From Trypanosoma brucei (taxonomy: Eukaryota), in assembly GCA_000002445.1 (NCBI GenBank), contig CP000067.1:1056001-1120000 (forward strand): a stretch of DNA of 64,000 nt. The letters run 5' to 3'. Shown in pieces: positions 2,060 through 49,994 of the stretch (position 1 is its first letter; each line of letters opens with the position of its first letter). Made by a program: the position numbers and the translations under genes. The notes under the pieces were generated by a model. The model saw only the letters and a program-made list of their open reading frames with translations, made no database searches and had not been told where the DNA came from.

Positions 2060-3138
2060 GTTTTCAACTGTACATAAAACAAACATATGGGATAGTAATA
2101 GTTGCGGGGTGATGACAAGTGAGGTGTGATGAGAATACCAACCGCTGGAAGAACCACGCAGAACACTACACAAATGCACACACGTATATGTGTATGTGTA
2201 AAAGAACAAATATTCTTTTATTTTAAGAGAGAGAGAGAGGGGGGGGGGAACATCCAGACCATTTCAGAATTTGTACCAACACTCCAAGTGCCGCCGGTTT
2301 GCGTACCGTATGCCGCTGAGAGTTACCTGCGCACGACTGTCCTGTCGTCACACAAAGATTTGGAGAAAAGAACAGCGGGTAAAGAGGAGTCGGCATCGCT
2401 AGTGTTTCCGTGCAAGGCAAAAGAAAAAAAAACGGGAAAGAAAACAACAACAAGCAAACACAAAAGAAGGGAAAACGTCATGCGACCGCAAACCGCCAAG
2501 CGGAAAGGGGGACTCCGCACGACGGTTAAATGAATTAATTATCAGCGGTGTTCGCGCAATTCATTAAATTATTGAAAAGTGGGGATTCGTGCAACCTGTC
2601 ATTTTTGTTTTTTGTGACGCGTAGTTTGTCACTCAACAAGTAATATGACATATTTTTGTGTGTGCCATGTGACTTTCCTTGAAACTACGAAGGGGAAGAA
2701 GGGTTCAGAATTCTCAATTTGTGTAAATAAATGAACTAATCAGAGGAAAAAAAAAGGGGAAACAGGGAAGAGATAATAATAATAAAAGAACCGCCACAAT
2801 TCCGTGGCTTAAAGCTGAGCAGGTGACAGACATATGCGAGGGTTATGCAGTGATAGAAAAAAAAATAGCAGTCCGCAGTGGGAGCGCACACCTGGTCAGA
2901 AAAAAAAGTAAAATAAAGAAATAAAAAGAAAATTAGCCCTTTCCGAATTTCTCAACGCCCACTCAAAGTTGTGGAGTGTACTGGGCAAAAATAAAATAAA
3001 AGACAAAAAGTAGATAAATACAACAACAAGCACACCAATAAATAGGAGGGAGAGCAAAAGAAATCAGAAAAAAAATTAGGGAAAAACATTGAGGAGGAAA
3101 ATGACGGTGACGAGTGGGGGAATATGAAACAAAGAGAA

Positions 3139-3158
3139 TATATATATATATATATATA
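3139..3158. repeat. (TA)10 microsatellite in the intergenic part of array unit 1
   Basis: Direct count in the sequence 'aatatatatatatatatatatagg'. Confidence 0.9.
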
Positions 3159-3788
3159 GGAATGACACGCATATTTTTTTTTTTTCATTTTCCCTTTTGA
3201 CACTCCACTCAAATCATTCGCTCTTTTCGTCCCCTCACCCGATCGCCATCATTAACCAAACTTTGATATCGCAGGCTGTGAAATTGCTCAAGACCGGACA
3301 AAACGAGGGAAAATAAAACAAAAAAAAATAGAAAGTTGAGAAAGGTGTTGACACCACACATTATATTAAATACAAAAAAAACAATGAACGATGCTCATCA
3401 CAGTGGTCAGGATACCTGCCAGTGGTGCACGATGGAAAGAAGTCCATGCGAAGGCCTTCCTCTACTTTTTTCCCTCTTTCGAAACGCATTATTACTCATT
3501 TAAAAGACATTAACAACAATAACAACAACAAAATAATTACAAAGATATTATTTTTTAAAGTTAAAAAGAAACTAGGGTAGGGTAGAGAGGAAAACGAAAC
3601 AAAACAAGCATAAGAAAGGTGATAGCATACAGTTGTGACCACTTTACCTTAAATAGAAATTTACTTTCTCTTTATATCTTGTTACACCCAGGGGCTTAGT
3701 GGGAAATAAGCACTTTCTCAGCTCTTGTCAGCGCCTCAAACTTAAGAATTGAGTCCGCCGCATGCTGGCACTTACGTTTAGTTTATGT

Positions 3789-5159
3789 TCATCCCCTGAC
3801 GGTATCCAAAATGGTGGAGCCGGTGCCGAACACAATAAGAAACACACCGCACAGCAGCACCACATAAGTCGTAATGTAATATAAGGGCCCAACTTTCTGC
3901 CATGTGAAGCCCCCTGAGTACATAATCAACAACGCGGGGAAGACGAAACCCAGTGAACCACCACACACAGATCCGGCAATACCAAACACGGTGGTGATCT
4001 TCGGGATGAATATACTCAAAAGCAAAACAAGGAACGACAGTGTAATGACTGACACGCAATGCTTCCAAAAGGGTAGAGAATCCGCAGTCTTCCCAACGAC
4101 GTCATACAATGCATTACGACACGCCATAGCAACTAGGGCATAGGATACGCATAGTTTGATAACGACGCCAATCATACCAACCATTACAGCCGGCTCCTTT
4201 ACGGGGTCGTACATAAGCAAAATAGAACTGGTTGCGGTCTTACCAAAGTCCATGTAACCGAAAAAGGCAGTGATTATGTACATTATACAGCAAAGGGTAT
4301 TGGCAATGATGGCCGCAATAACAAACTTACGTACTGAACGATCCTTCATGTCAATATAAACTTCGTACGCTGTAATCTGCGATATGAATGCGAACATAAA
4401 TACTCCCATTCCCTCAATGGCCTGGAATCCGCTGTTGAATAGGATGATTTCGGCATCTTCGCTCTTGGTCACACTAACATTCTTTATATTCTCCGACAAG
4501 CCATTCATGCACGAGTGCACAACGATCACAATGACAAAATACACCATGAAGGTAACGGCAAAAGTGGAGACGTACCGAAGGGAGTCGATGTGACGCGGAA
4601 TCGTCAGTGGAAGCATAAAACATGCCCAAACCACCGCCATGAGAAGACGATTACCTGATTTTTCCTTCAGGAAGTCCGGCGCATTTGTGCCTTTCAAAAT
4701 GGCAGACAAAATATCTCCCACTGAAATCACGTAGGCAACACAACCACTAAAACCGAGTAGCGCTCGAATACCAGCAAGAACATACGCAGCCCCGCGGCCG
4801 AGAAGTGCGCGAGTTGCCCTCTCGAAGGTGGGGGCTCCTGAGCGGTCGGCTGCGACTGAGAGGTTGTGCATCGTGAAAACCGTTACGGAAGAGATGAAAA
4901 TGAGGTAAAACATTCCCATGATAAGGCCGGTACTGTTGGCCGCCGGAGGCATCCCGAAGATTCCCGCACCGATTGTTGTTGACGCCATGTTAAAAGCACT
5001 GGCCGCAATGCCACCCGGAGGCAAAACAGTGGCGACGCACAAACTCACCTTCGTAAAGAATGTGTTTCGCCCCTTCTTCACGTTATCTTCGGTCTGCACC
5101 GGTTCATTGGAGAGGTTGTTTGGCGTTTGCACTTCTTGTTGTTGCTTGGAGTTGCTCAT
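3789..5159 (-). CDS. Amino acid transporter (AAAP/AAT family), array copy 1. The track ORF runs to 5465; start proposed at the internal ATG (MSNSKQQQ...).
   Basis: Multi-TM protein with motifs typical of trypanosomatid AATs (GGIAASAFNMASTTIGAGIFGMP..., 10-11 hydrophobic segments). The extension from 5160 to 5465 is hydrophobic/low-complexity read-through with no counterpart in the paralog at 13244-14659. 'cat' at 5157-5159 was verified. Confidence 0.75.
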   Translation of the reverse strand: MSNSKQQQEVQTPNNLSNEPVQTEDNVKKGRNTFFTKVSLCVATVLPPGGIAASAFNMASTTIGAGIFGMPPAANSTGLIMGMFYLIFISSVTVFTMHNLSVAADRSGAPTFERATRALLGRGAAYVLAGIRALLGFSGCVAYVISVGDILSAILKGTNAPDFLKEKSGNRLLMAVVWACFMLPLTIPRHIDSLRYVSTFAVTFMVYFVIVIVVHSCMNGLSENIKNVSVTKSEDAEIILFNSGFQAIEGMGVFMFAFISQITAYEVYIDMKDRSVRKFVIAAIIANTLCCIMYIITAFFGYMDFGKTATSSILLMYDPVKEPAVMVGMIGVVIKLCVSYALVAMACRNALYDVVGKTADSLPFWKHCVSVITLSFLVLLLSIFIPKITTVFGIAGSVCGGSLGFVFPALLIMYSGGFTWQKVGPLYYITTYVVLLCGVFLIVFGTGSTILDTVRG

Positions 5160-6459
5160 TGCGTCTTGCAGTCGATTAGCACTTTTAGGGACTTCTTTTA
5201 CCCACAGAGTTTCGGGAACAAAAGGATGAAAGAGAAAGAGCATGAGGAAGTGATGTGCAAGGAAAGTTAGATATGCACAAGTTGGTGCGTACCATGTCTG
5301 AAAGTTTATTGAAGAAGATGCAAGCACACACCTGGAGAGACGCAAATGACGTTCGCCTCCCTTCGTTTTGTGCTTGAGCTGTGCAGCAGTTGCCCCGATG
5401 ATTGTAATGCACACGAGGTGATTTCCATACCAACGTTGAATAGAGTTGTTTGAGGGCAAATTCACTTGCCACTGGAGTTACAAACGCATAAAGTCGTTTC
5501 GGCATGCTAGTGATTGTTTGCTCACGTTTCTTGTCGATTGCGCCACTTCTTCAGTACCATACGACTTCATGCGAGATGAAGAGCGGGGAAGACTTCTGCA
5601 AGACAAAACTTAAAATGTTGCAGTGCTTTGAAGCAGAGTGGACATACACATAACTTTGCTCCTTGATACCACAGCTAGGAACGCAGCGCCCCAAAGTTAT
5701 GAATTACATATGAACTTGATGCACTTGATGGAAGCGGCACCGCGTGAATGCCACTACTGAAAGTGTATGAAAGGAAAGAAAAGACAATAAGAATATTAGG
5801 GGAAAGAACAAAGAAGGGGTTAATGTTTCGCAATTACCATTTAACCTAGTGGTATACCTGAGATAATAAAATCAGCGGTGCACCGAAAGAAACGCTGCAC
5901 AGCCTGAGCACCGAGGGAGGAAGTTGAGGTAAAAAGAAAAAAAAAGAAACCATAAAACAAAAAAGAAACCGAAAGGGACCCTCGAATGGTATCGCAGAAG
6001 CAGCATTTGGAGATGAGTGGACGCATGGAGTCGGCAAACTTGACGGTTTTACCACCGCTTTATTCAACGGCAATGGAGCCACCGCCTCCAGCCGCATCGC
6101 ATAATACGGCCAAATCACTGCAATTCGCACCTCCGCTTGTTGTATTTTCTAATCGGCGGACGTAACGAGGGAAAAACGATGGGACCCCAACGAGATGACA
6201 ACGACAAAAGAAAAAAAAGTAAAATAAAGAAATAAAAAGAAAATTAGCCCTTTCCGAATTTCTCAACGCCCACTCAAAGTTGTGGAGTGTACTGGGCAAA
6301 AATAAAATAAAAGACAAAAAGTAGATAAATACAACAACAAGCACACCAATAAATAGGAGGGAGAGTAAAAGAAATCAGAAAAAAAATTAGGGAAAAACAT
6401 TGAGGAGGAAAATGACGGTGACGGGTGGGGGAATATGAAACAAAGAGAATATATATATA

Positions 6460-6477
6460 TATATATAGGAATGACAC
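6460..6477. repeat. (TA)9 microsatellite in array unit 2
   Basis: Direct count; same flanking sequence as unit 1 ('caaagagaa...ggaatgacacgc'). Confidence 0.9.
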
Positions 6478-7097
6478 GCATATTTTTTTTTTTTCATTTT
6501 CCCTTTTGACACTCCACTCAAATCATTCGCTCTTTTCGTCCCCTCACCCGATCGCCATCATTAACCAAACTTTGATATCGCAGGCTGTGAAATTGCTCAA
6601 GACCGGACAAAACGAGGGAAAATAAAACAAAAAAAATAGAAAGTTGAGAAAGGTGTTGACACCACACATTATATTAAATACAAAAAAAAACAATGAACGA
6701 TGCTCATCACAGTGGTCAGGATACCTGCCAGTGGTGCACGATGGAAAGAAGTCCATGCGAAGGCCTTCCTCTACTTTTTTCCCTCTTTCGAAACGCATTA
6801 TTACTCATTTAAAAGACATTAACAACAATAACAACAACAAAATAATTACAAAGATATTATTTTTTAAAGTTAAAAAGAAACTAGGGTAGGGTAGAGAGGA
6901 AAACGAAACAAAACAAGCATAAGAAAGGTGATAGCATACAGTTGTGACCACTTTACCTTAAATAGAAATTTACTTTCTCTTTATATCTTGTTACACCCAG
7001 GGGCTTAGTGGGAAATAAGCACTTTCTCAGCTCTTGTCAGCGCCTCAAACTTAAGAATTGAGTCCGCCGCATGCTGGCACTTACGTTTAGTTTATGT

Positions 7098-8468
7098 TCA
7101 TCCCCTGACGGTATCCAAAATGGTGGAGCCGGTGCCGAACACAATAAGAAACACACCGCACAGCAGCACCACATAAGTCGTAATGTAATATAAGGGCCCA
7201 ACTTTCTGCCATGTGAAGCCCCCTGAGTACATAATCAACAACGCGGGGAAGACGAAACCCAGTGAACCACCACACACAGATCCGGCAATACCAAACACGG
7301 TGGTGATCTTCGGGATGAATATACTCAAAAGCAAAACAAGGAACGACAGTGTAATGACTGACACGCAATGCTTCCAAAAGGGTAGAGAATCCGCAGTCTT
7401 CCCAACGACGTCATACAATGCATTACGACACGCCATAGCAACTAGGGCATAGGATACGCATAGTTTGATAACGACGCCAATCATACCAACCATTACAGCC
7501 GGCTCCTTTACGGGGTCGTACATAAGCAAAATAGAACTGGTTGCGGTCTTACCAAAGTCCATGTAACCGAAAAAGGCAGTGATTATGTACATTATACAGC
7601 AAAGGGTATTGGCAATGATGGCCGCAATAACAAACTTACGTACTGAACGATCCTTCATGTCAATATAAACTTCGTACGCTGTAATCTGCGATATGAATGC
7701 GAACATAAATACTCCCATTCCCTCAATGGCCTGGAATCCGCTGTTGAATAGGATGATTTCGGCATCTTCGCTCTTGGTCACACTAACATTCTTTATATTC
7801 TCCGACAAGCCATTCATGCACGAGTGCACAACGATCACAATGACAAAATACACCATGAAGGTAACGGCAAAAGTGGAGACGTACCGAAGGGAGTCGATGT
7901 GACGCGGAATCGTCAGTGGAAGCATAAAACATGCCCAAACCACCGCCATGAGAAGACGATTACCTGATTTTTCCTTCAGGAAGTCCGGCGCATTTGTGCC
8001 TTTCAAAATGGCAGACAAAATATCTCCCACTGAAATCACGTAGGCAACACAACCACTAAAACCGAGTAGCGCTCGAATACCAGCAAGAACATACGCAGCC
8101 CCGCGGCCGAGAAGTGCGCGAGTTGCCCTCTCGAAGGTGGGGGCTCCTGAGCGGTCGGCTGCGACTGAGAGGTTGTGCATCGTGAAAACCGTTACGGAAG
8201 AGATGAAAATGAGGTAAAACATTCCCATGATAAGGCCGGTACTGTTGGCCGCCGGAGGCATCCCGAAGATTCCCGCACCGATTGTTGTTGACGCCATGTT
8301 AAAAGCACTGGCCGCAATGCCACCCGGAGGCAAAACAGTGGCGACGCACAAACTCACCTTCGTAAAGAATGTGTTTCGCCCCTTCTTCACGTTATCTTCG
8401 GTCTGCACCGGTTCATTGGAGAGGTTGTTTGGCGTTTGCACTTCTTGTTGTTGCTTGGAGTTGCTCAT
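7098..8468 (-). CDS. Amino acid transporter (AAAP/AAT family), array copy 2, identical at protein level to copy 1
   Basis: Identical 558-aa ORF in the track at 7098-8774. The same internal-start logic applies (8774 minus 306 = 8468). Confidence 0.75.
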   Translation of the reverse strand: MSNSKQQQEVQTPNNLSNEPVQTEDNVKKGRNTFFTKVSLCVATVLPPGGIAASAFNMASTTIGAGIFGMPPAANSTGLIMGMFYLIFISSVTVFTMHNLSVAADRSGAPTFERATRALLGRGAAYVLAGIRALLGFSGCVAYVISVGDILSAILKGTNAPDFLKEKSGNRLLMAVVWACFMLPLTIPRHIDSLRYVSTFAVTFMVYFVIVIVVHSCMNGLSENIKNVSVTKSEDAEIILFNSGFQAIEGMGVFMFAFISQITAYEVYIDMKDRSVRKFVIAAIIANTLCCIMYIITAFFGYMDFGKTATSSILLMYDPVKEPAVMVGMIGVVIKLCVSYALVAMACRNALYDVVGKTADSLPFWKHCVSVITLSFLVLLLSIFIPKITTVFGIAGSVCGGSLGFVFPALLIMYSGGFTWQKVGPLYYITTYVVLLCGVFLIVFGTGSTILDTVRG

Positions 8469-9759
8469 TGCGTCTTGCAGTCGATTAGCACTTTTAGGGA
8501 CTTCTTTTACCCACAGAGTTTCGGGAACAAAAGGATGAAAGAGAAAGAGCATGAGGAAGTGATGTGCAAGGAAAGTTAGATATGCACAAGTTGGTGCGTA
8601 CCATGTCTGAAAGTTTATTGAAGAAGATGCAAGCACACACCTGGAGAGACGCAAATGACGTTCGCCTCCCTTCGTTTTGTGCTTGAGCTGTGCAGCAGTT
8701 GCCCCGATGATTGTAATGCACACGAGGTGATTTCCATACCAACGTTGAATAGAGTTGTTTGAGGGCAAATTCACTTGCCACTGGAGTTACAAACGCATAA
8801 AGTCGTTTCGGCATGCTAGTGATTGTTTGCTCACGTTTCTTGTCGATTGCGCCACTTCTTCAGTACCATACGACTTCATGCGAGATGAAGAGCGGGGAAG
8901 ACTTCTGCAAGACAAAACTTAAAATGTTGCAGTGCTTTGAAGCAGAGTGGACATACACATAACTTTGCTCCTTGATACCACAGCTAGGAACGCAGCGCCC
9001 CAAAGTTATGAATTACATATGAACTTGATGCACTTGATGGAAGCGGCACCGCGTGAATGCCACTACTGAAAGTGTATGAAAGGAAAGAAAAGACAATAAG
9101 AATATTAGGGGAAAGAACAAAGAAGGGGTTAATGTTTCGCAATTACCATTTAACCTAGTGGTATACCTGAGATAATAAAATCAGCGGTGCACCGAAAGAA
9201 ACGCTGCACAGCCTGAGCACCGAGGGAGGAAGTTGAGGTAAAAAGAAAAAAAAAGAAACCATAAAACAAAAAAGAAACCGAAAGGGACCCTCGAATGGTA
9301 TCGCAGAAGCAGCATTTGGAGATGAGTGGACGCATGGAGTCGGCAAACTTGACGGTTTTACCACCGCTTTATTCAACGGCAATGGAGCCACCGCCTCCAG
9401 CCGCATCGCATAATACGGCCAAATCACTGCAATTCGCACCTCCGCTTGTTGTATTTTCTAATCGGCGGACGTAACGAGGGAAAAACGATGGGACCCCAAC
9501 GAGATGACAACGACAAAAGAAAAAAAAGTAAAATAAAGAAATAAAAAGAAAATTAGCCCTTTCCGAATTTCTCAACGCCCACTCAAAGTTGTGGAGTGTA
9601 CTGGGCAAAAATAAAATAAAAGACAAAAAGTAGATAAATACAACAACAAGCACACCAATAAATAGGAGGGAGAGTAAAAGAAATCAGAAAAAAAATTAGG
9701 GAAAAACATTGAGGAGGAAAATGACGGTGACGGGTGGGGGAATATGAAACAAAGAGAAT

Positions 9760-9783
9760 ATATATATATATATATATATATAG
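9760..9783. repeat. (TA)12 microsatellite in array unit 3
   Basis: Direct count; same flanks as units 1 and 2. Confidence 0.9.
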
Positions 9784-10411
9784 GAATGACACGCATATTT
9801 TTTTTTTTTCATTTTCCCTTTTGACACTCCACTCAAATCATTCGCTCTTTTCGTCCCCTCACCCGATCGCCATCATTAACCAAACTTTGATATCGCAGGC
9901 TGTGAAATTGCTCAAGACCGGACAAAACGAGGGAAAATAAAACAAAAAAAATAGAAAGTTGAGAAAGGTGTTGACACCACACATTATATTAAATACAAAA
10001 AAAACAATGAACGATGCTCATCACAGTGGTCAGGATACCTGCCAGTGGTGCACGATGGAAAGAAGTCCATGCGAAGGCCTTCCTCTACTTTTTTCCCTCT
10101 TTCGAAACGCATTATTACTCATTTAAAAGACATTAACAACAATAACAACAACAAAATAATTACAAAGATATTATTTTTTAAAGTTAAAAAGAAACTAGGG
10201 TAGGGTAGAGAGGAAAACGAAACAAAACAAGCATAAGAAAGGTGATAGCATACAGTTGTGACCACTTTACCTTAAATAGAAATTTACTTTCTCTTTATAT
10301 CTTGTTACACCCAGGGGCTTAGTGGGAAATAAGCACTTTCTCAGCTCTTGTCAGCGCCTCAAACTTAAGAATTGAGTCCGCCGCATGCTGGCACTTACGT
10401 TTAGTTTATGT

Positions 10412-11782
10412 TCATCCCCTGACGGTATCCAAAATGGTGGAGCCGGTGCCGAACACAATAAGAAACACACCGCACAGCAGCACCACATAAGTCGTAATGT
10501 AATATAAGGGCCCAACTTTCTGCCATGTGAAGCCCCCTGAGTACATAATCAACAACGCGGGGAAGACGAAACCCAGTGAACCACCACACACAGATCCGGC
10601 AATACCAAACACGGTGGTGATCTTCGGGATGAATATACTCAAAAGCAAAACAAGGAACGACAGTGTAATGACTGACACGCAATGCTTCCAAAAGGGTAGA
10701 GAATCCGCAGTCTTCCCAACGACGTCATACAATGCATTACGACACGCCATAGCAACTAGGGCATAGGATACGCATAGTTTGATAACGACGCCAATCATAC
10801 CAACCATTACAGCCGGCTCCTTTACGGGGTCGTACATAAGCAAAATAGAACTGGTTGCGGTCTTACCAAAGTCCATGTAACCGAAAAAGGCAGTGATTAT
10901 GTACATTATACAGCAAAGGGTATTGGCAATGATGGCCGCAATAACAAACTTACGTACTGAACGATCCTTCATGTCAATATAAACTTCGTACGCTGTAATC
11001 TGCGATATGAATGCGAACATAAATACTCCCATTCCCTCAATGGCCTGGAATCCGCTGTTGAATAGGATGATTTCGGCATCTTCGCTCTTGGTCACACTAA
11101 CATTCTTTATATTCTCCGACAAGCCATTCATGCACGAGTGCACAACGATCACAATGACAAAATACACCATGAAGGTAACGGCAAAAGTGGAGACGTACCG
11201 AAGGGAGTCGATGTGACGCGGAATCGTCAGTGGAAGCATAAAACATGCCCAAACCACCGCCATGAGAAGACGATTACCTGATTTTTCCTTCAGGAAGTCC
11301 GGCGCATTTGTGCCTTTCAAAATGGCAGACAAAATATCTCCCACTGAAATCACGTAGGCAACACAACCACTAAAACCGAGTAGCGCTCGAATACCAGCAA
11401 GAACATACGCAGCCCCGCGGCCGAGAAGTGCGCGAGTTGCCCTCTCGAAGGTGGGGGCTCCTGAGCGGTCGGCTGCGACTGAGAGGTTGTGCATCGTGAA
11501 AACCGTTACGGAAGAGATGAAAATGAGGTAAAACATTCCCATGATAAGGCCGGTACTGTTGGCCACCGGAGGCATCCCGAAGATTCCCGCACCGATTGTT
11601 GTTGACGCCATGTTAAAAGCACTGGCCGCAATGCCACCCGGAGGCAAAACAGTGGCGACGCACAAACTCACCTTCGTAAAGAATGTGTTTCGCCCCTTCT
11701 TCACGTTATCTTCGGTCTGCACCGGTTCATTGGAGAGGTTGTTTGGCGTTTGCACTTCTTGTTGTTGCTTGGAGTTGCTCAT
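10412..11782 (-). CDS. Amino acid transporter (AAAP/AAT family), array copy 3, with a single A-to-V substitution
   Basis: The ORF at 10412-12088 differs from copies 1 and 2 only at GMPPVANSTG versus GMPPAANSTG. This is a g-to-a change at ~11565 on the plus strand ('ggccaccgg' versus 'ggccgccgg'). Confidence 0.75.
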   Translation of the reverse strand: MSNSKQQQEVQTPNNLSNEPVQTEDNVKKGRNTFFTKVSLCVATVLPPGGIAASAFNMASTTIGAGIFGMPPVANSTGLIMGMFYLIFISSVTVFTMHNLSVAADRSGAPTFERATRALLGRGAAYVLAGIRALLGFSGCVAYVISVGDILSAILKGTNAPDFLKEKSGNRLLMAVVWACFMLPLTIPRHIDSLRYVSTFAVTFMVYFVIVIVVHSCMNGLSENIKNVSVTKSEDAEIILFNSGFQAIEGMGVFMFAFISQITAYEVYIDMKDRSVRKFVIAAIIANTLCCIMYIITAFFGYMDFGKTATSSILLMYDPVKEPAVMVGMIGVVIKLCVSYALVAMACRNALYDVVGKTADSLPFWKHCVSVITLSFLVLLLSIFIPKITTVFGIAGSVCGGSLGFVFPALLIMYSGGFTWQKVGPLYYITTYVVLLCGVFLIVFGTGSTILDTVRG

Positions 11783-13243
11783 TGCGTCTTGCAGTCGATT
11801 AGCACTTTTAGGGACTTCTTTTACCCACAGAGTTTCGGGAACAAAAGGATGAAAGAGAAAGAGCATGAGGAAGTGATGTGCAAGGAAAGTTAGATATGCA
11901 CAAGTTGGTGCGTACCATGTCTGAAAGTTTATTGAAGAAGATGCAAGCACACACCTGGAGAGACGCAAATGACGTTCGCCTCCCTTCGTTTTGTGCTTGA
12001 GCTGTGCAGCAGTTGCCCCGATGATTGTAATGCACACGAGGTGATTTCCATACCAACGTTGAATAGAGTTGTTTGAGGGCAAATTCACTTGCCACTGGAG
12101 TTACAAACGCATAAAGTCGTTTCGGCATGCTAGTGATTGTTTGCTCACGTTTCTTGTCGATTGCGCCACTTCTTCAGTACCATACGACTTCATGCGAGAT
12201 GAAGAGCGGGGAAGACTTCTGCAAGACAAAACTTAAAATGTTGCAGTGCTTTGAAGCAGAGTGGACATACACATAACTTTGCTCCTTGATACCACAGCTA
12301 GGAACGCAGCGCCCCAAAGTTATGAATTACATATGAACTTGATGCACTTGATGGAAGCGGCACCGCGTGAATGCCACTACTGAAAGTGTATGAAAGGAAA
12401 GAAAAGACAATAAGAATATTAGGGGAAAGAACAAAGAAGGGGTTAATGTTTCGCAATTACCATTTAACCTAGTGGTATACCTGAGATAATAAAATCAGCG
12501 GTGCACCGAAAGAAATGCTGCACAGCCTGAGCACCGAGGGAGGAAGTTGAGGTAAAAAGAAAAAAAAAGAAACCATAAAACAAAAAAGAAACCGAAAGGG
12601 ACCCTCGAATGGTATCGCAGAAGCAGCATTTGGAGATGAGTGGACGCATGGAGTCGGCAAACTTGACGGTTTTACCACCGCTTTATTCAACGGCAATGGA
12701 GCCACCGCCTCCAGCCGCATCGCATAATACGGCCAAATCACTGCAATTCGCACCTCCGCTTGTTGTATTTTCTAATCGGCGGACGTAACGAGGGAAAAAC
12801 GATGGGACCCCAACGAGATGACAACGACAAAAGAAAAAAAAGAAAACAAAAGAATTTGAGCAGGAATTTTTTTGGGAAAAAGAGATGAAATTTGCTTCAC
12901 ATGTTGTAAAGATCAAGTACTTTAATCGTTCCACAATGCAGTGGCGAAGTAAAAGATGAAAGAAGACCTACCACCAAACCAATGAAAAAAGAACCGAAAG
13001 TGGTCCGCTCATTCGCTACCACTGCGGCAGCAAAAAAAGAGGGAAAATGAGTGGAATGCGAAAGGGTGGAGACAACTGTTGCCGAAAGAGTGAAGACACG
13101 TTGGTGGCGGTTAACTATCCTCCGCTGCGTTCAATGGTAATAGGCAGATAAGTAACAAAACATCTGATTTATTTATTTACTTATTTACTGACTCTCCTCC
13201 TTTACCTCCTTTTTTTCTTCAATAGGAACTTCAAAGCCGCCGG

Positions 13244-14659
13244 TTAACCAGTTATAGTGCCCCATATACTTGCACCCGTGCCGAAAACAATGCCTACAAC
13301 ACCACAAATTAGTAAAACATATGTCGCAAGATAATGTAAAGACCCAACTTTCTGCCATGTGAAGCCCCCTGAGTACATAATCAACAACGCGGGGAAGACG
13401 AAACCCAGTGAACCACCGGTAATCGAGCCAGAAAAACCAAGGACGGTATTAACATTGGGAATGAATAGACCCAAAAGCAGTGCAGCAGTGGACAGCACGA
13501 TGACTGACACGCAATGCTTCCAAAAGGGTAGAGAATCCACATTCTTCTCTGCAATGCTGTACAATGCATTACGACACGCCATAGCGAGCAGCGCATACGA
13601 AGCAACCAGCTTTACAAGCACGCCAATCATACCAACCATTACAGCCGGCTCCTTTACGGGGTCGTACATAAGCAAAATAGAACCGGAAACAGCACGACCA
13701 AAGTCCATGTAACCGAAAAAGGCAGTGATTATGTACAGCGCAGTACACAGGGACATGGCAATGATGGCCGCAATAACAAACTTACGTACTGAACGATCCT
13801 TCATGTCAATATAAACTTCATACGCCGTGTCCTGACAAGTGTAGGAAAACATAAATACTCCCAACCCTTCAATGGCTTCATTCCCGCTATTAAAGAGAAT
13901 GATGGCAGCTGTATCACTCTTTCCAACACTAACATTCTTTATATTCTCCGACAAGCCATTCATGCACGAGTGCACAACGATCACAATGACAAAATACACC
14001 ATGAAGGTAACGGCAAAAGTGGAGACGTACCGAAGGGAGTCGACGTGACGCGGGATCGCCAGTGGAAGCATAAAACATGCCCAAACCACCGCCGTGAGAA
14101 GACGATTACCTGATTTTTCCTTCAGGAAGTCCGGCGCATTTGTGCCTTTCAAAATGGCAGACAAAATATCTCCCACTGAAATTACGTAGGCAACACAACT
14201 CGTAAAACCATCAAGCGCTCGAAGAACAGCAATGGCATAAGCAACTCTACGACCCATGAGGACAAATGTTACGCTTTCATATGTGGGTGCTTTGGAGCGG
14301 TCCGCTGCGAGGGCGAGATTACGCATGGAATAGATAGTCATGCAACTAATAAAAAAGAGGTAAAACATTCCCATGATAAGTCCACTGCTGCCGGCCGATG
14401 ACGGCAAGCCAAAGATGCCAGCGCCCAGCGTTGTCGCTGCGATGTTGAAGGCACTGGCGATTGTACCTCCGGGAGGGATGAATGCAGCAAATTGTGTGCT
14501 CTGCTCACCAGGAGGTTGCTTCCCTGATTGGGGTTCGTTTGATTGAACATTTTGACTGGTTTCACAGTTTCCAACGTTATTATTGACAACGGTGTGACCG
14601 ATCGGCTCGAAACAATTGTGAGGTACGGTGTTGCTTGTATTTTCTCTGGCAATACACAT
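13244..14659 (-). CDS. Amino acid transporter (AAAP/AAT family), a divergent mosaic paralog immediately downstream of the array
   Basis: 471-aa ORF. The central region is identical or near-identical to the array copies (for example FAVTFMVYFVIVIVVHSCMNGLSENIKNVSV and YEVYIDMKDRSVRKFVIAAIIA). The N-terminal 60 aa and the C-terminal 70 aa have diverged. Confidence 0.8.
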   Translation of the reverse strand: MCIARENTSNTVPHNCFEPIGHTVVNNNVGNCETSQNVQSNEPQSGKQPPGEQSTQFAAFIPPGGTIASAFNIAATTLGAGIFGLPSSAGSSGLIMGMFYLFFISCMTIYSMRNLALAADRSKAPTYESVTFVLMGRRVAYAIAVLRALDGFTSCVAYVISVGDILSAILKGTNAPDFLKEKSGNRLLTAVVWACFMLPLAIPRHVDSLRYVSTFAVTFMVYFVIVIVVHSCMNGLSENIKNVSVGKSDTAAIILFNSGNEAIEGLGVFMFSYTCQDTAYEVYIDMKDRSVRKFVIAAIIAMSLCTALYIITAFFGYMDFGRAVSGSILLMYDPVKEPAVMVGMIGVLVKLVASYALLAMACRNALYSIAEKNVDSLPFWKHCVSVIVLSTAALLLGLFIPNVNTVLGFSGSITGGSLGFVFPALLIMYSGGFTWQKVGSLHYLATYVLLICGVVGIVFGTGASIWGTITG

Positions 14660-15095: not shown

Positions 15096-16661
15096 TTACC
15101 GAAAGGCGACAATACAAATGTTTTCTCCTGTTACACTCGACTCGGCGTACTGACAAAGATAGGTCCGCCGGAATCCACTTTGTTTTAAGTATTCAAGCCG
15201 GAAAGCGTCAATTACTCTTTTACAACACATACCTGTGAGGCGTCGCTCAGCATCCACAGCTTCTCCACTCACTGCCCAAGAAGACATGGAAGTTATTGCG
15301 GCGAACTCTCTCTCACTAAACGTATGGTTGGTACCAGGAATCGCGATTCGGCCCCTGCGACACTCGCTCGGGGATAACAAGGCATTTATATGCTTCAATT
15401 CACAGCGTTGGTGACAGCATGTAGCGAAGACAACGGCACACACAGAGGCAAACCCTTCCGTGTTAAGATTAGGTGCTGTAACGCACGAGAGAGCAAAGTC
15501 TGTGCATGCTCCACAAAGGTGTTTGCCGACGGCCACCCACTGTTCTTCCACCGACACTGACTGCTTGATGGCGTTTGTGCATTGATCGGATGTACTGCTT
15601 GTTTCCTCTCTGGACCGTTTACATGTGGACGCACCACATAGTGCTTTTGCCAAATCAAGGTCCTTTATATTGATGCGCAATCGAACGAGCGGAAGGCGAC
15701 TGTTTCGAACACACGCATCGGCTTTGCGCCGGAAGTTATCCATATCTACAACTACAATACGCGGAAAGCCTCCATTGTCAGCACTAAGGGCCTCATTCAC
15801 GGCTGTCCGCCCTTCCTTTCTCTCCTGAAATCCGGGATGACTATGACAATACCGGATAGACCCTGAAAGCAAAGCATCCTGCAACGAAACAGCGAGACCA
15901 GCTTTGCCTGCACCTAATTCAAGGAAACCGGCTATTCTAACATATGTGTTTCCAAGATTCCCCCGCCCCTCGGCGTAACCGCGGATGACCGTCTGCACGC
16001 AACGAAGCAAAGCCCTGTGCTGCGGCCCATGTTTGTTGGAAATTCGTCGCGTTGACCCTGTGCTGCTGTTATCTTGAAAGGGCTCCTGACATTCCTCCGC
16101 AAGAAGGACAATCCGTGGCTGGATAACATTAAAGTAGCACTCCCTTACGCGTGTGATGAGGTCCTCCAAAACCACCGTGTCCATATGATGATGTGTGAAG
16201 CGTTCCTTTTCCGATTCCTGGGAAGTGACACAGTAGGCCACGCCTTTGCACGCATGTAGGTCCTTGCTATAGTATGGGAGCTTGTCAACAACAAAGCGTA
16301 GATCAGGACATACCTTTACGTGCTTTTGCAATTTATCGGCATAAACAGTGTGGTTTGGGTTGATGGGACACGGGACCCGCTGGAGGGCGCGTGAAGGTCC
16401 CGTAGAAACGCCCTCACCAGCAGTTCTCCCCGGGCCAACGGCTGAGCCCGAGCTGCTCAAAACGACAGCAGGTGTTGTTTCCCCCGTTGTGGTGCCGTTC
16501 ACATCGTGAGTGGGACAATAGCGCCCACCGGCTCGTTTGGCCGTGCGACAGAACCGGCGCTTGTGCGAGAGGTAAAAATCGCATGCCACAGCGTCAGGGT
16601 TATGAGTGGGGCGCATTTGTCCCTTTCCGGTCCCTTCGCCTTCCTGAGTTGTGGCATCCAT
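15096..16661 (-). CDS. TRM13-like tRNA 2'-O-methyltransferase (CCCH plus CHHC zinc fingers plus methyltransferase domain)
   Basis: N-terminal CDFYLSHKRRFCRTAKRAGGRYCPTHD fits a TRM13-type CCCH finger. CPINPNHTVYADKLQKHVKVC fits a U11-48K/CHHC finger. Downstream LELGAGKAGL fits SAM-binding motif I. The architecture matches the TRM13 family. Confidence 0.6.
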   Translation of the reverse strand: MDATTQEGEGTGKGQMRPTHNPDAVACDFYLSHKRRFCRTAKRAGGRYCPTHDVNGTTTGETTPAVVLSSSGSAVGPGRTAGEGVSTGPSRALQRVPCPINPNHTVYADKLQKHVKVCPDLRFVVDKLPYYSKDLHACKGVAYCVTSQESEKERFTHHHMDTVVLEDLITRVRECYFNVIQPRIVLLAEECQEPFQDNSSTGSTRRISNKHGPQHRALLRCVQTVIRGYAEGRGNLGNTYVRIAGFLELGAGKAGLAVSLQDALLSGSIRYCHSHPGFQERKEGRTAVNEALSADNGGFPRIVVVDMDNFRRKADACVRNSRLPLVRLRINIKDLDLAKALCGASTCKRSREETSSTSDQCTNAIKQSVSVEEQWVAVGKHLCGACTDFALSCVTAPNLNTEGFASVCAVVFATCCHQRCELKHINALLSPSECRRGRIAIPGTNHTFSEREFAAITSMSSWAVSGEAVDAERRLTGMCCKRVIDAFRLEYLKQSGFRRTYLCQYAESSVTGENICIVAFR

Positions 16662-39184: not shown

Positions 39185-41173
39185 TCATAAGTTCCACGTC
39201 AGCCCGCAGCGAAGATGGTGAAACGCCTCCGTTGCCGAGGGTCGCAATACGGCTTTATCGACCGACTGACCCTCAACAAGACCTGACAAAAGTTTCATAC
39301 CGTCCCTACCAAACTTCAACCACCAGTTAAAACTACACTCAAAGGACGAGGGCGCAAGGGTGTTGAAGGCGTCCTCTCTGGCACGTGGCCTGCTAGTCAA
39401 GGAGAATCCCATAGATGCTCGCGGTGGGTTCTTGAAGGAGTCCATCAAACAGGCGTTCGCATAAATCATTCCACCTGGTTTTCTCCAACCGGTTTGAGAC
39501 GCTCCGTCAACGAGCATTTTGGATTCGTCCCGCAACTTGCCGCCGAAGCCCAATTCCATGGAGAGCACCGTATACCACCTTGAGGCGTAGTGCATACCCG
39601 GATATATGTCACGGAATCCGCGTATGAGACCCGCATCCCACACCGGGCCTTGCGTAGCCCAGAATAAAGAGTGTTCTCCGCTCCTGACCGCGTGGCTCCC
39701 ATGGCTTCCGTTGACTTGGACGTCCGAAAATGTTTGCTTCCACTGCCCAGCGGTAAGCGGCTGCACGAGGGACGATTTGTTTCGAAGCCGAAGAAAGAAA
39801 CGGTCCGCGCGGAGTGGCAGCTCAACCCACCACTCCGACCACAGTTTACCGAAGAATGTCAATGAACGCTCAGCGCTATTGAAGTCCACGCCGGGACCAC
39901 CAGCCCACCGCAAACAGTACGTTGCACGTGGAAAAAGCCAACGCAAAAATGGTGATGTGAAGTGCTGAACAAAGCTGTCATACTCATCCAGCACTAACAA
40001 TGAAGTAATTCTTTGATTCGGTGCCCTCTCTGGGATACAAGTGGTACCCTTCACGGTGAGTGAGTAACGTGGGTTGCGAAATTGCAGTGACGCACGAAAC
40101 CCCGACTCACGAAGTTTTGCGGTAATGATTTCCGTCTCCGTCTCCTTCCCCTCGGCCTCCGCCTCTTCTGTCATGCCAACTACTGCAGTCTCACCTGCAG
40201 ACAGATGGTTCATTTCTGGTGACTTGCTACGTGTCTTGCAGAGCACCAGGCGCTCAGTACGCACTTGATTGGCGTGCCCATCCAAGTAAATGGCATCAAC
40301 ATCCCGCCACAACCTCACCCGATCCCCAAAGTCCTCGGAGAGTTCTCTCGGGAACTCTCGCGCAAAAGATACAGCCAGAACTAAGTCATTCCACGGCATG
40401 CGGAGCGGGCCAACAGCGTCGCCAACAATAGGGACACGTGCATGTGGGACCTTTTGATAACAACTCCCACGCAGGAAGTATGGAAACCATTGCTGCTTCT
40501 CAGTTGCGACAGTGACGTCGTGGTGCCACTGTGGGAAAACGAGGAACCTTGTGGGGCCGCGGGGAAGCGGCATGTGGAAATAACCACCAAAATACGGTCG
40601 CAACCATCCCGAGTGTCCGTTGTGGCCACGAGCGGCTTCCGCTTCTTCAATGCTCCTCACAAGGTTCTCCCTATTCTTCTTCCTCAACATCTCAGCGAAT
40701 ACGTGGCGGGATGGCTCCTCCTGCACGCTCCTGACGCGAGCTTCATGAGCATGTTTGGGAGAGGATTCCTGAAGTTTTACGCGGAGAACGCGATGCGGTT
40801 TCCCCACTGTTCCGGTAGTGGCAGCGGAATCTTCAACCTCCTCAACAACCGTTTCAATTGTGGAGCCCCTTCGCAGTGGGTAAGTTGGTGATGCTGCCTC
40901 ATATATTGGTGAGCTGTACCTGAATTTCTCCCAGCGGAGAGCCTTGCAGGCGGTAACGTCATTCTCCAATTGAACTAACAGTGCTTCTGTAGCGTTTTTA
41001 ATGTTATCATTCCCCTTTGTTGTTGGTGCAGCACTGGTGTCACTCCTTGACGGTAACGTAGTTGATGTGTGTGCGCGGTATCGTGAGAAAAACCACTGGA
41101 GGCAGGCGTCGTCACGCGCTATGGAAGAGTTGTGCAGTTCAAAATCTACCCGAGGCTCCTTAACTGCAGTCAT
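39185..41173 (-). CDS. Hypothetical protein (662 aa), no confident domain
   Basis: Long clean ORF with a protein-like composition that is rich in W, R and F. I recognise no motifs. Confidence 0.5.
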   Translation of the reverse strand: MTAVKEPRVDFELHNSSIARDDACLQWFFSRYRAHTSTTLPSRSDTSAAPTTKGNDNIKNATEALLVQLENDVTACKALRWEKFRYSSPIYEAASPTYPLRRGSTIETVVEEVEDSAATTGTVGKPHRVLRVKLQESSPKHAHEARVRSVQEEPSRHVFAEMLRKKNRENLVRSIEEAEAARGHNGHSGWLRPYFGGYFHMPLPRGPTRFLVFPQWHHDVTVATEKQQWFPYFLRGSCYQKVPHARVPIVGDAVGPLRMPWNDLVLAVSFAREFPRELSEDFGDRVRLWRDVDAIYLDGHANQVRTERLVLCKTRSKSPEMNHLSAGETAVVGMTEEAEAEGKETETEIITAKLRESGFRASLQFRNPRYSLTVKGTTCIPERAPNQRITSLLVLDEYDSFVQHFTSPFLRWLFPRATYCLRWAGGPGVDFNSAERSLTFFGKLWSEWWVELPLRADRFFLRLRNKSSLVQPLTAGQWKQTFSDVQVNGSHGSHAVRSGEHSLFWATQGPVWDAGLIRGFRDIYPGMHYASRWYTVLSMELGFGGKLRDESKMLVDGASQTGWRKPGGMIYANACLMDSFKNPPRASMGFSLTSRPRAREDAFNTLAPSSFECSFNWWLKFGRDGMKLLSGLVEGQSVDKAVLRPSATEAFHHLRCGLTWNL

Positions 41174-41800
41174 TGCGCACCCTAAACAAAGGTATGTATG
41201 TCCTTTCTCTTCCTTTACAAAAGTTTTTGACTGTTTTGACCCATACTACTACACACACAACGGGTAGGGATTAGAAATACATTAGAAACAATGATGCCAA
41301 AGAAACACTGTGCGCAATGAACAACCGTTTAAAAGTTTACTCCGGGATGCATCCCTGCTGGTACCCAAAGCACGAATGTACGAAAAACACGTCCCGCTGA
41401 AGCCGGTACTGTGATTCGATGCATAGGTAAGAAATTCATCTGTGTGACCACCATGTGTGCATCATCGGAGATGTTGTTTTAGCGGTAAGCGTCTGCTTTA
41501 GGGGTGTGTTACGAGCAAAAAAGAAAAAATGACGAGGCAACAAATGAGCAAATCTCAAAAAAAAAAACATAACACGATGTTTCACAGTGACCTCCGGCCT
41601 TGTTGAAACCTTACCAAAGCACAGGAAAGACATCTGACTTGCTTCCTCATTGCAGTTGCCTTCTTTTTCCACTGCTCTCCCCGTGTGCCGCTCCTCACCC
41701 AAACAACAACTCGCGGCACATCCCACTGCAGTTTGTGTGAATAATTAAATTACCCCTCCCCTCAGAGGATCACAGCCTCTGGTATCAAAAAGAGTTCATG

Positions 41801-44605: not shown

Positions 44606-45253
44606 CAAGCTAATTTTATTGACTTGACCTACAAACACATAATGAGGAGAAGTGGAGGGAGAGAGAGAGTATATCCCCAATGTTTTTTATTGGTGTAAAA
44701 AATAAAATAAAATAATAACGTGTGTCCCAAACAGAATAACGCAAACTACGCGACTGGTGTGAACGACACATCGTCGAAAAGAAATCATGCAGCACACTTA
44801 ACAACCCCCCCAGTGCGAGCATACAACTCAGAAATCAGTAAATGCAGACATCTGCGAACAGAGAAAAAGGAACTGTGGAAGCATAAACTGGACCACACAG
44901 CTCCCCTTCATGTTGTGTACGTAACAAATTGCGGCCATGTCCCAAGTCATCATTTCGTGCGATGATGTTTACTTCAAACTTCACTTCGCGGATTAGCTTT
45001 GCCTGGCCTCAGCCTACTGTCGGCCGCGACACATCGATGCGCATGAAGGCGAATCAACTTGTTAGATAAGTGGCACAACTGAAAAGGAACAATCCGCATT
45101 CGCGTGGTTGACGTGATACAGAGACCACGCAAAATCCCACCAAATACCCTCCTCAACTGCACAACTAGCTCCAGTTGCGCACGTATTACCCACATCTCAG
45201 TACCTTTGAGGCTCCTTAATTTGCCTCTTTAGCTGCTCACTCAGCCCTGTGGA

Positions 45254-47944: not shown

Positions 47945-48184
47945 ATTTTTCTCTACTCTATACTTCTCGCCAATTTTCCGAGGTTCTATGAAAGGGTACA
48001 TAAAAAAAAAAGGCAGCAACTTGTCCTGAAGGCAAAATTTGGCAGAAAACAACTTGCCGAACAATCTGGTATCTCGATTTAGTTTCTATACCAAGAAAGA
48101 TACAGGGGACTGAGACGTTAATGGCACCAGCGTCACCGACCACGAGGGGGTAATTAAAGGGTAGTTCGTCTTCAATAGTATACA

Positions 48185-49039: not shown

Positions 49040-49994
49040 TTGTTTCCCCCTTCCCTACGGACAAAATAAGAGGCGCACTGAGCGTGTCCCTGGGCTACTG
49101 TCTGCGACGCCTTCGTCGCAGCTGATTTGTATGTGCGCAGGAAGCGTAAAGGTGATATTTAAGTAAAGGAACATAAAATATAGGGTAGATATGGAGCTCA
49201 AGAGAGCATAGTGCGGTTTGTTTAGATGCACCCCCTTTTTGTCATATTTTTCACGATGGAATGTGACTAGTGCTGTGGCCGACATTCATGGTTGCTTCGA
49301 CCCTCCTTCCCTGTAATTTATGTTACCCACTCCTCTTCTAAACAAAAGTATTTCAAACTACTCACCTCATAACAAACATGATATATATATAAGTAGTGGG
49401 GTGATAAAGGCTTGGAGTAAGAGAGAGATGAAACCCACGCTTCTCACTCCTGTATACAGCCAGCGGATGCGAAATCGCTAGGGCCCACCGCGTGGCGTAA
49501 ACACAATGTAGGACCGTTCGAACAAGAGAAAATCCCAAAAAGAGGAGGTGGCGCCGGATGAAGTAATTGTGTATGTATGCGTAGTGCTCTCTCCATACTC
49601 AGAAGGGAATAAAAATCTAAAAAATAAGACAAAAGTCAAAAGACGGGTAAAGCTTTGCGCCACTCAACTTAGACAAGTTAAACTGCGATATCAAGGTCTC
49701 CGAAAATGTAAAGCACCTACTGTAACGTACCTGGTGCCAAACCAGTGTAGTTATGGCGTAACACTAGCAACAGCAATGTGTATCTATATCCCTGTACACA
49801 TACATGAAAGTCTACCGAGGGGAGTAGAGGATCCTCCCCTTCTCTATTTATATCTATCCGTGGAGTCTATTCTTGTAGAGAGAGAGAGCTCCCCCTGTCC
49901 AGAAGTACAGCTGCCGTTACCACTTCTTTCCTGCGAGTGTGTATTGGTGGGTCGTATGGTGCCTTTTACACAAACGCGCGACTCTTGCTAGTGA

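What the first reader, a model, noticed from the sequence alone, without database searches (positions are those of the whole stretch)
2896..12838. Perfect three-unit tandem array of amino-acid transporter genes with almost no divergence, suggesting concerted evolution or an assembly collapse risk
Three 3.31 kb units are identical except for about 3 SNPs (plus-strand ~11565, ~12515 and ~12600), a homopolymer length change, and a (TA)n length polymorphism. The SNPs are one coding A-to-V change in copy 3 and two intergenic changes. Such near-identity over ~10 kb implies very recent duplication or ongoing gene conversion. Arrays like this are frequently mis-sized in assemblies, so the true copy number may be higher. 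Dosage of this transporter is plausibly under selection.
Basis: seen in the sequence. Interest (0 to 1): 0.6.

Follow-up and report, generated by a model that had tools for sequence, protein, structure and literature searches.

The report
Known trypanosome amino-acid transporter gene triplication
The three near-identical 3.3 kb repeats are real, but they are the annotated and published AAT2 amino-acid transporter gene array on chromosome 4 of the Trypanosoma brucei TREU927 reference genome, an ordinary tandem gene array of a kind common in this parasite.

Summary
Three head-to-tail units (2898-6208, 6209-9517, 9518-12831) differ by 4 SNPs, two A-run changes and an (AT)9/10/12 repeat.

The window is Trypanosoma brucei brucei TREU927 chromosome 4. 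The three genes are XP_844549/50/51, inferred to be Tb927.4.3990-4010. A fourth, diverged paralogue at 13244-14659 is Tb927.4.4020, TbAAT2-4, the characterised ornithine/histidine transporter.

Together they form locus AAT2Tb, array "Tb26" of Jackson 2007. That work already reported concerted evolution here and already warned that such arrays can be mis-sized in assembly.

New details found here:
- The array ends share an 11-bp AGAAAAAAAAG microhomology in pyrimidine-rich tracts.
- The SNP pattern makes the middle unit look recombinant, which fits two rounds of unequal crossing-over.
- All three units share 15 sites against the single units assembled in T. b. gambiense and T. b. equiperdum.
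- AAT2-4 orthologues carry strain-specific conversion tracts of array type.

True copy number cannot be tested here, and the other assemblies are collapse-prone. Verdict: real, ordinary, already known, low interest.

The parts
2898..6208 (-). Repeat unit 1 (3311 bp): one transporter gene plus about 0.9 kb of downstream and about 1.0 kb of upstream non-coding sequence. It carries a private C at 3055 and retains the ancestral A at 3113 and the A9 run at 3320.
6209..9517 (-). Repeat unit 2 (3309 bp). Its left part matches unit 3 (G at 6424) and its right part matches unit 1 (C at 9202), so it looks like a recombinant unit.
9518..12831 (-). Repeat unit 3 (3314 bp). It carries a private A at 11565 (Ala101Val) and retains the ancestral T at 12516.
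3789..5243 (-). CDS copy 1, 484 aa as annotated (XP_844549/50; inferred Tb927.4.3990, AAT2-1). An alternative ATG at 5159 would give 456 aa. The mechanical ORF runs to 5465.
7098..8552 (-). CDS copy 2, with a protein identical to copy 1 (inferred Tb927.4.4000, AAT2-2).
10412..11866 (-). CDS copy 3, the Ala101Val variant. It is 100% identical to XP_844551.1 (inferred Tb927.4.4010, AAT2-3).
2898..2908 (.). Left array boundary: AGAAAAAAAAG at the start of an A-rich tract, which is a polypyrimidine tract on the coding strand. The same 11-mer begins every unit.
12832..12842 (.). Right array boundary: the same 11-bp AGAAAAAAAAG, followed by a different A-rich sequence. This is the microhomology at the duplication junction.
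3138..3157 (.). (AT)10 microsatellite in the downstream non-coding part of unit 1. The equivalents are (AT)9 at 6449-6466 and (AT)12 at 9758-9781.
13244..14659 (-). Fourth, diverged paralogue, 471 aa: Tb927.4.4020 = TbAAT2-4, the characterised high-affinity ornithine/histidine transporter. It belongs to the same published locus (AAT2Tb, n=4).
13926..14199 (-). 274-nt tract of AAT2-4 that is 98% identical to the array genes (4471-4744 in copy 1), inside flanks of about 70-80% identity. It is probably an old gene-conversion tract shared by all strains examined.

Best explanation
This is the AAT2 locus of Trypanosoma brucei brucei TREU927 chromosome 4. It holds three near-identical tandem copies of an amino acid/auxin permease (AAAP) gene, AAT2-1 to AAT2-3, inferred to be Tb927.4.3990-4010. 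Next to them lies the older, diverged paralogue AAT2-4 (Tb927.4.4020). All of them sit in one minus-strand polycistronic transcription unit between a DnaJ gene and a TRM13 gene.

The three-unit array was most likely made, and is kept uniform, by unequal crossing-over between misaligned repeats. The first duplication joined two pyrimidine-rich (A-rich on the plus strand) intergenic tracts that share the 11-mer AGAAAAAAAAG. A second unequal exchange between two units then produced a recombinant middle unit. Short-tract gene conversion also operates between the array gene and AAT2-4.

Trypanosome protein-coding genes have no individual promoters, so the main effect of extra copies is a proportionally higher mRNA dose of this still-uncharacterised transporter.

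Shown here: the identity of the locus, the unit anatomy, the junction microhomology, the SNP pattern and the conversion mosaics. Inferred: the crossing-over history, the dosage effect, and whether the amplification is specific to the TREU927 lineage.
For: Identity of the locus.
- The proteins are 100% identical to XP_844549/50, XP_844551 and XP_844552 of TREU927, on a 1,590,432-bp contig.
- The published TbAAT2-4 ORF primer matches 14633-14659 exactly.
- Jackson 2007 lists AAT locus 2 as Tb927.4.3990, n=4, with concerted evolution inferred. The same Ks/Ka values identify it as array Tb26.

Transporter family.
- Pfam Aa_trans matches at E=1e-44 over positions 6-409 of 410.
- A crude hydropathy scan gives about 10-11 hydrophobic segments.
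- There is a weak PDB sequence match to SLC36A1/PAT1.

Array history.
- Both array ends share an 11-bp microhomology.
- Unit 1 is (A,C), unit 2 is (G,C) and unit 3 is (G,T) at offsets 216 and 2996. The states A and T match both T. b. gambiense and T. b. equiperdum.
- At 15 sites all three units agree against both other taxa. Divergence is 0.06-0.12% within the array and 0.73-0.85% between strains.
- The T. b. gambiense DAL972 and T. b. equiperdum IVM-t1 assemblies are collinear with the window and hold exactly one unit.

Gene conversion.
- Array-type patches occur in AAT2-4 orthologues at nt 566-616, 777-796 and 1101-1121 in gambiense, and at nt 777-796 and 905-1180 in IVM-t1.

Transcription context.
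- All ORFs of 220 aa or more in 16-64 kb lie on the minus strand except one that overlaps a longer minus-strand ORF.
Against: - Copy number in TREU927 cannot be verified without reads. A further unit identical to unit 2 could be collapsed.
- The single unit in the other assemblies is weak evidence. DAL972 is a Sanger draft whose authors say assembled repeat numbers can be arbitrary. IVM-t1 rests on MiSeq reads plus only 7,508 PacBio reads.
- The two-step crossover history rests on two SNPs and one A-run. The second A-run (6682) does not fit it without homoplasy or a sequencing error.
- The 15 shared sites are unpolarised, because there is no outgroup for the intergenic sequence.
- The dosage effect and any selection are not tested.
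Confidence: 0.85

Rival explanations
1. The multi-copy array is old and present in all T. brucei subspecies. It is kept uniform by continuing gene conversion and unequal crossing-over. The single unit seen in T. b. gambiense and T. b. equiperdum is an assembly collapse, not biology.
For: - Jackson 2007 inferred concerted evolution for AAT2Tb relative to T. congolense homoeologues and argued for an ancestral array.
- Gene conversion is demonstrably active at the locus.
- The other assemblies are collapse-prone.
- The T. equiperdum OVI contig breaks inside the unit at the (TA)n repeat.
- T. congolense has an 8-gene AAT array on one contig.
Against: - Near-identity extends uniformly over about 1.9 kb of non-coding sequence per unit. 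The few differences follow a simple crossover-like pattern rather than scattered conversion patches.
- No second unit variant is visible in either other assembly.
- Jackson's test included the diverged AAT2-4, so it does not speak to the age of the triplet.
Confidence: 0.3
2. The assembled unit count of three is wrong. Either the true TREU927 array is longer, with extra units identical to unit 2 collapsed, or it is shorter, with allelic variants of the two homologues strung together as extra tandem copies.
For: - Units differ by less than 0.15%, and the literature states that order and number of copies differing by less than 5% are hard to resolve with Sanger reads.
- The unit length of 3.3 kb exceeds Sanger read length.
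- Unit 2 has no private SNP. Only an (AT)9 repeat and an A-run distinguish it.
Against: - Three distinct unit haplotypes, (A,C), (G,C) and (G,T), were assembled, each with a different (AT)n length.
- From my own knowledge, not checked here: chromosome 4 of TREU927 was sequenced BAC by BAC. That would put one haplotype in each clone and make allelic stringing unlikely.
Confidence: 0.2
3. The uniformity is maintained by purifying selection on three independently old copies, not by recombination.
For: The coding sequence carries only one change, a conservative Ala-to-Val.
Against: - The non-coding 57% of each unit is as uniform as the CDS, with 3 SNPs in about 1.85 kb against 1 in 1.46 kb.
- The same sequence differs at 0.7-0.8% between strains, including in non-coding parts. 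Selection cannot freeze neutral spacer sequence.
Confidence: 0.01

Closest known systems
AAT2Tb locus (Tb927.4.3990-4020), also called tandem array Tb26, of T. brucei TREU927 (Jackson 2007, BMC Evol Biol 7:26 and 7:54)
   Same: It is the same object. The proteins are identical, the locus has four copies, it lies on chromosome 4, and concerted evolution has already been inferred for it.
   Different: Nothing differs. This analysis only adds the junction microhomology, the SNP-based crossover history, the 3-versus-1 unit difference from the DAL972 and IVM-t1 assemblies, and the cross-strain conversion tracts in AAT2-4. Jackson's gene-conversion table listed events in AAT4, AAT7 and AAT9 only.
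TbAAT10 locus on chromosome 8 (Tb927.8.8290/8300: AAT10-1 ornithine transporter, AAT10-2 branched-chain amino-acid transporter)
   Same: It is the paralogous locus created by the chromosome 4/8 block duplication. The array protein is 74% identical to AAT10-2 (P0002, whose N-terminus MDRSGSQS matches the AAT10-2 ORF primer). AAT2-4 pairs with AAT10-1.
   Different: AAT10 has two dissimilar genes and no near-identical triplet. The substrates of AAT2-1 to AAT2-3 have not been determined, so a branched-chain or neutral amino-acid specificity is only a guess from homology.
Invariant or low-variation T. brucei tandem arrays attributed to unequal crossing-over (tubulin, histones, PFR, glycerol kinase, AAT5)
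   Same: These are head-to-tail units with identical coding and intergenic sequence. Variation is confined to simple-repeat tract lengths, terminal units are curtailed, and the genes are expressed from a polycistronic unit as a dosage device.
   Different: Only three units are assembled here, and a diverged fourth copy lies adjacent. In Jackson's terms this makes it a 'mixed' array.
AAAP / SLC36-type (Pfam PF01490) amino-acid permeases
   Same: There is a full-length Aa_trans domain, about 10-11 hydrophobic segments and a hydrophilic N-terminus.
   Different: The only solved relative found by sequence is very distant (SLC36A1, E=5e-4). The substrate is unknown.

Membership tests
T. brucei AAT2 locus (Tb927.4.3990-4020) | Proteins identical to the TREU927 reference entries | tested here: met
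   The exact-sequence look-up returns XP_844549/50 for copies 1 and 2, XP_844551 for copy 3 (100% over 484 aa) and XP_844552 for the 471-aa gene.
T. brucei AAT2 locus (Tb927.4.3990-4020) | Four tandem AAT genes at this chromosome 4 position, the last being TbAAT2-4 | tested here: met
   tblastn finds exactly four AAT genes in the window. The Macedo 2017 TbAAT2-4 ORF primer matches 14633-14659 with no mismatch. Jackson's Table 1 gives n=4.
AAAP family (Pfam PF01490 Aa_trans) | Full-length domain match above the gathering threshold | tested here: met
   The score is 152.9 bits against a cutoff of 25.6, covering profile positions 6-409 of 410.
AAAP family (Pfam PF01490 Aa_trans) | Polytopic membrane protein with about 11 transmembrane helices | tested here: met
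   A Kyte-Doolittle scan gives about 10-11 hydrophobic segments. This is a crude method.
AAAP family (Pfam PF01490 Aa_trans) | Amino-acid transport activity and substrate | not testable with these tools
   No functional study of AAT2-1 to AAT2-3 was found. Only AAT2-4 has been characterised.
Concerted evolution of tandem duplicates | Copies within a genome are more alike than each is to its positional counterpart in a related genome | tested here: met
   At 15 sites units 1, 2 and 3 agree and differ from both T. b. gambiense and T. b. equiperdum. Divergence is 0.06-0.12% within the array and 0.73-0.85% between strains. The same pattern is expected from a duplication that post-dates the strain split.
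Gene conversion between paralogues | Mosaic tracts of donor-type sequence bounded on both sides by recipient-type sequence | tested here: met
   AAT2-4 orthologues carry array-type runs of 9-58 consecutive informative sites, flanked by AAT2-4-type sites. The tracts differ between strains. Among the three array units themselves the test is inconclusive, because there are too few differences.
Mis-sized or collapsed tandem array in an assembly | Read depth or spanning reads that disagree with the assembled unit count | not testable with these tools
   No read data are accessible. The literature states the general risk.

The most novel reading that the evidence does not exclude
The array-type gene acts as a recurrent conversion donor that overwrites different parts of the neighbouring ornithine/histidine transporter TbAAT2-4 in different T. 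brucei lineages. The overwritten part is about 6% of the CDS in gambiense, about 20% in equiperdum IVM-t1, and everything from nt ~500 to the stop in a possible true hybrid gene in T. equiperdum OVI. If so, subspecies would differ in the substrate specificity of a transporter that modulates eflornithine and suramin sensitivity. The TREU927 triplication would raise the donor dose.
Probability: 0.12. Interest if true: 0.4.

Novelty: already known. Interest (0 to 1): 0.1.

Why it matters
It matters little as a discovery. The array is annotated in the reference genome. Its family, its tandem structure, its concerted evolution and the assembly caveat were all published in 2007-2010.

The practical points are modest:
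- Copies 1-3 cannot be told apart by short reads, RNAi or probes, so expression and knock-down data for Tb927.4.3990, 4000 and 4010 are collective.
- The substrate of this triplicated transporter is still unknown, although its neighbour and its chromosome 8 paralogues are linked to ornithine and branched-chain amino-acid uptake and to drug sensitivity.
- The strain-specific mosaics in AAT2-4 mean that results obtained with the Lister 427 or TREU927 allele may not transfer to other subspecies.

Tried and rejected
- An Rfam gathering-threshold scan and ARAGORN over the whole window found nothing. No RNA gene or tRNA is involved.
- TRF found only A-rich and (AT)n simple repeats.
- Exact look-up of the TREU927 protein P0001 for its own contig returned 'not on record'. 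The chromosome identity therefore rests on the cluster tables.
- Literature searches for a functional study of AAT2-1, AAT2-2 or AAT2-3, or for the Lister 427 gene IDs, returned nothing relevant.
- The T. b. gambiense genome paper's tables of subspecies-specific duplications and mosaic arrays do not list this locus.
- A 2026 T. brucei pangenome preprint does not mention AATs.
- I first assumed the IVM-t1 assembly was a solid long-read assembly that would prove single copy. The genome announcement shows only 7,508 PacBio reads plus MiSeq, so I downgraded that evidence.
- Purifying selection as the cause of uniformity was rejected, because the spacers are as uniform as the CDS.
- The bacterial-type promoter/terminator scan was not used, because it does not apply to trypanosomes.
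Full report
OBSERVATION. A repeat search and self-BLAST and a MAFFT alignment confirm three head-to-tail direct repeats at 2898-6208, 6209-9517 and 9518-12831. Their lengths are 3311, 3309 and 3314 bp.

There are four substitutions among the units. At 3055, unit 1 has C and the others T. At 3113, unit 1 has A and the others G. At 11565, unit 3 has A and the others G. At 12516, unit 3 has T and the others C. The length differences are an (AT)10/(AT)9/(AT)12 microsatellite at 3138, 6449 and 9758, and two A-runs of 9/8, 8/9 and 8/8. Pairwise divergence is 0.06-0.12%.

The A-to-V change in copy 3 is correct: it is Ala101Val in the 484-aa protein. It is 82% identical in nucleotides and 71% in amino acids.

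WHAT IT IS. Each unit carries one minus-strand ORF with a full-length Pfam Aa_trans (PF01490) domain at E=1e-44. The protein has about 10-11 hydrophobic segments and a weak sequence match to the solved SLC36A1/PAT1 structure.

A protein search returns a 100% match to 'amino acid transporter, putative [Trypanosoma brucei brucei TREU927]' on a 1,590,432-bp contig. The exact-sequence look-up gives XP_844549.1 and XP_844550.1 for copies 1 and 2, XP_844551.1 for the Val variant in copy 3, and XP_844552.1 for the 471-aa gene. The window is therefore TREU927 chromosome 4.

Jackson 2007 (PMC1810246) lists 'AAT locus 2, Tb927.4.3990, n=4' and reports 'unambiguous evidence' for concerted evolution of AAT2Tb. 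The companion paper (PMC1855330) lists the same array as Tb26, with identical Ks/Ka values.

The 471-aa gene is Tb927.4.4020, TbAAT2-4, a high-affinity ornithine/histidine transporter that affects eflornithine and suramin sensitivity (PMC5602898). Its published ORF primer matches 14633-14659 with no mismatch.

From the accession order, copies 1-3 are Tb927.4.3990, 4000 and 4010 (AAT2-1 to AAT2-3). This assignment is inferred. I found no functional study of them. Their closest characterised relative is AAT10-2 on chromosome 8, at 74% identity (P0002). AAT10-2 was recently reported as a branched-chain amino-acid transporter (PMC13524880).

Expression notes from the literature are few. Tb927.4.4000 mRNA is transiently raised 1 h into stumpy-to-procyclic differentiation. 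A T. congolense homologue is strongly stage-enriched.

CONTEXT. Genes flanking the array are a DnaJ gene (599-2209), TRM13 (15096-16661) and an ABC transporter. All long ORFs across the 64 kb lie on the minus strand, apart from one that overlaps a longer minus-strand ORF. No tRNA or Rfam family is present. This is one polycistronic transcription unit, typical of trypanosomes (established knowledge).

ANATOMY OF THE DUPLICATION. Each unit begins, on the plus strand, with AGAAAAAAAAGTAAAATAAAGAAATAAAAAG. The sequence just after the third unit begins AGAAAAAAAAGAAAACAAAAG. The array ends therefore share an exact 11-bp microhomology inside A-rich tracts, which are polypyrimidine tracts on the coding strand. 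One tract lies downstream of the gene and one upstream of it. This is what unequal exchange between two similar low-complexity tracts flanking a single ancestral gene would leave behind.

COMPARISON WITH OTHER ASSEMBLIES. The syntenic regions of T. b. gambiense DAL972 (L001) and T. b. equiperdum IVM-t1 (L002) are collinear with the window. Each holds exactly one unit between the AAT2-4 orthologue and DnaJ.

Aligning these single units with the three TREU927 units gives 15 substitutions and a 4-bp indel at which all three TREU927 units agree and both other taxa differ. Divergence between strains is 0.73-0.85%, against 0.06-0.12% within the array. The three units therefore coalesce well after the strains split. 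That could be through recent duplication or through homogenisation.

At the intra-array SNPs, unit 1 keeps the state shared with the other taxa at offset 216 (A) and has the different state at offset 2996 (C). Unit 3 is the reverse (G, T). Unit 2 has both non-shared states (G, C).

This is the pattern expected from a two-unit intermediate, (A,C)-(G,T), that underwent one unequal crossover, which would give a recombinant middle unit. The A-run at 3320 fits this. The A-run at 6682 does not, unless there was homoplasy or an error. The inference rests on very few sites and is offered as consistent with the data, not as proven.

CAVEAT ON COPY NUMBER. The single unit in the other assemblies is weak evidence. 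The DAL972 authors state that the number of assembled repeat units 'can be arbitrary'. IVM-t1 was built from MiSeq reads plus only 7,508 PacBio reads. The T. equiperdum OVI contig (L003) ends inside the unit at the (TA)n tract. Jackson 2007 already warned that arrays with copies differing by less than 5% are hard to size and order.

GENE CONVERSION. Within TREU927, AAT2-4 and the array gene are 98% identical over 274 nt (13926-14199 against 4471-4744), inside flanks of about 70-80% identity.

I used 690 sites at which all array genes agree and TREU927 AAT2-4 differs. The gambiense AAT2-4 orthologue carries array-type runs at nt 566-616, 777-796 and 1101-1121. The IVM-t1 orthologue carries them at nt 777-796 and 905-1180, with 58 of 59 sites array-type. 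In every case the runs are flanked by AAT2-4-type sites.

In these tracts TREU927 AAT2-4 resembles AAT10-1. The array gene is therefore the donor and AAT2-4 the recipient.

The gambiense patches are shorter than a Sanger read, and the 777-796 patch is shared by two assemblies. These tracts are therefore real rather than chimeric assembly.

The OVI contig switches once, between nt 461 and 566, from AAT2-4-type to array-type. It stays array-type for 492 of 492 sites through the 3' UTR to the contig end. This is either a true hybrid gene or an assembly switch inside the shared identical tract. I cannot tell which.

Subspecies-specific mosaics in T. brucei tandem arrays are a published general phenomenon. 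This locus, however, is not in that paper's tables, nor in Jackson's list of AAT conversion events.

MECHANISM AND FUNCTION. Trypanosome protein-coding genes lack individual promoters and are transcribed polycistronically (established knowledge; also abstract). Tandem copy number is therefore a main route to higher mRNA output. The most likely effect of the triplet is a threefold dose of one AAAP permease. That is inference. No dosage or selection test was possible.

VERDICT. The feature is an annotated reference-genome locus whose tandem structure and concerted evolution were described in 2007, so it is already known and of low interest. The junction microhomology, the recombinant-looking middle unit, the three-versus-one unit difference between assemblies and the strain-specific conversion tracts in TbAAT2-4 are small increments.

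Noticed in passing
window 13244-14659 (-); L001 7206-8621; L002 7207-8622: Orthologues of the characterised ornithine/histidine transporter TbAAT2-4 are strain-specific mosaics. Array-type conversion tracts lie at nt 566-616, 777-796 and 1101-1121 in T. b. gambiense DAL972, and at nt 777-796 and 905-1180 in T. b. equiperdum IVM-t1. The IVM-t1 tract even shares the strain's own Phe-to-Tyr change with its array gene. The functional consequences are unknown.
   Followed up: yes
L003 10001-12065 (T. equiperdum OVI, CZPT02001693.1): The annotated 471-aa 'AAT2-4' is a clean hybrid. It is AAT2-4-type to nt ~460, then array-type for 492 of 492 informative sites through the stop codon and 3' UTR, until the contig ends at the (TA)n tract. 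It is either a real unequal-crossover fusion gene or a short-read assembly chimera across the ~270-nt identical tract.
   Followed up: partly
window 5160-5243 (and 8469-8552, 11783-11866), minus strand: The annotated 484-aa start adds a hydrophobic 28-residue extension (MLFLFHPFVPETLWVK...) ahead of a second ATG (MSNSKQQQ..., 456 aa). The other AAT N-termini are hydrophilic, so the true start codon is uncertain without spliced-leader site data.
   Followed up: no
L004 1-18748 (T. congolense IL3000 contig CAEQ01002298.1): Eight tandem AAT genes (469-500 aa) lie in 18.7 kb, a much larger AAT array in a related species. I did not check whether it is syntenic with AAT2, AAT10 or another locus.
   Followed up: no
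window 1-64000: Every long ORF is on the minus strand and cumulative GC skew falls steadily across the window. This fits a single polycistronic transcription unit with no strand-switch region, tRNA or Rfam-recognised RNA. The genes include DnaJ, TRM13, an ABC half-transporter, a PDE-like protein, CLP1, CCDC39 and an FtsH-type AAA protease.
   Followed up: partly
window 58000-60000 and 62000-64000: There are two AT-rich stretches (GC 0.42 and 0.38, against about 0.50 for the neighbouring sequence) with A-rich simple repeats. They are probably long intergenic or UTR regions and were not examined further.
   Followed up: no
window 39185-52502 (-): Four large ORFs (662, 959, 936 and 835 aa) have no Pfam match. 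They are presumably kinetoplastid-specific hypothetical proteins.
   Followed up: no
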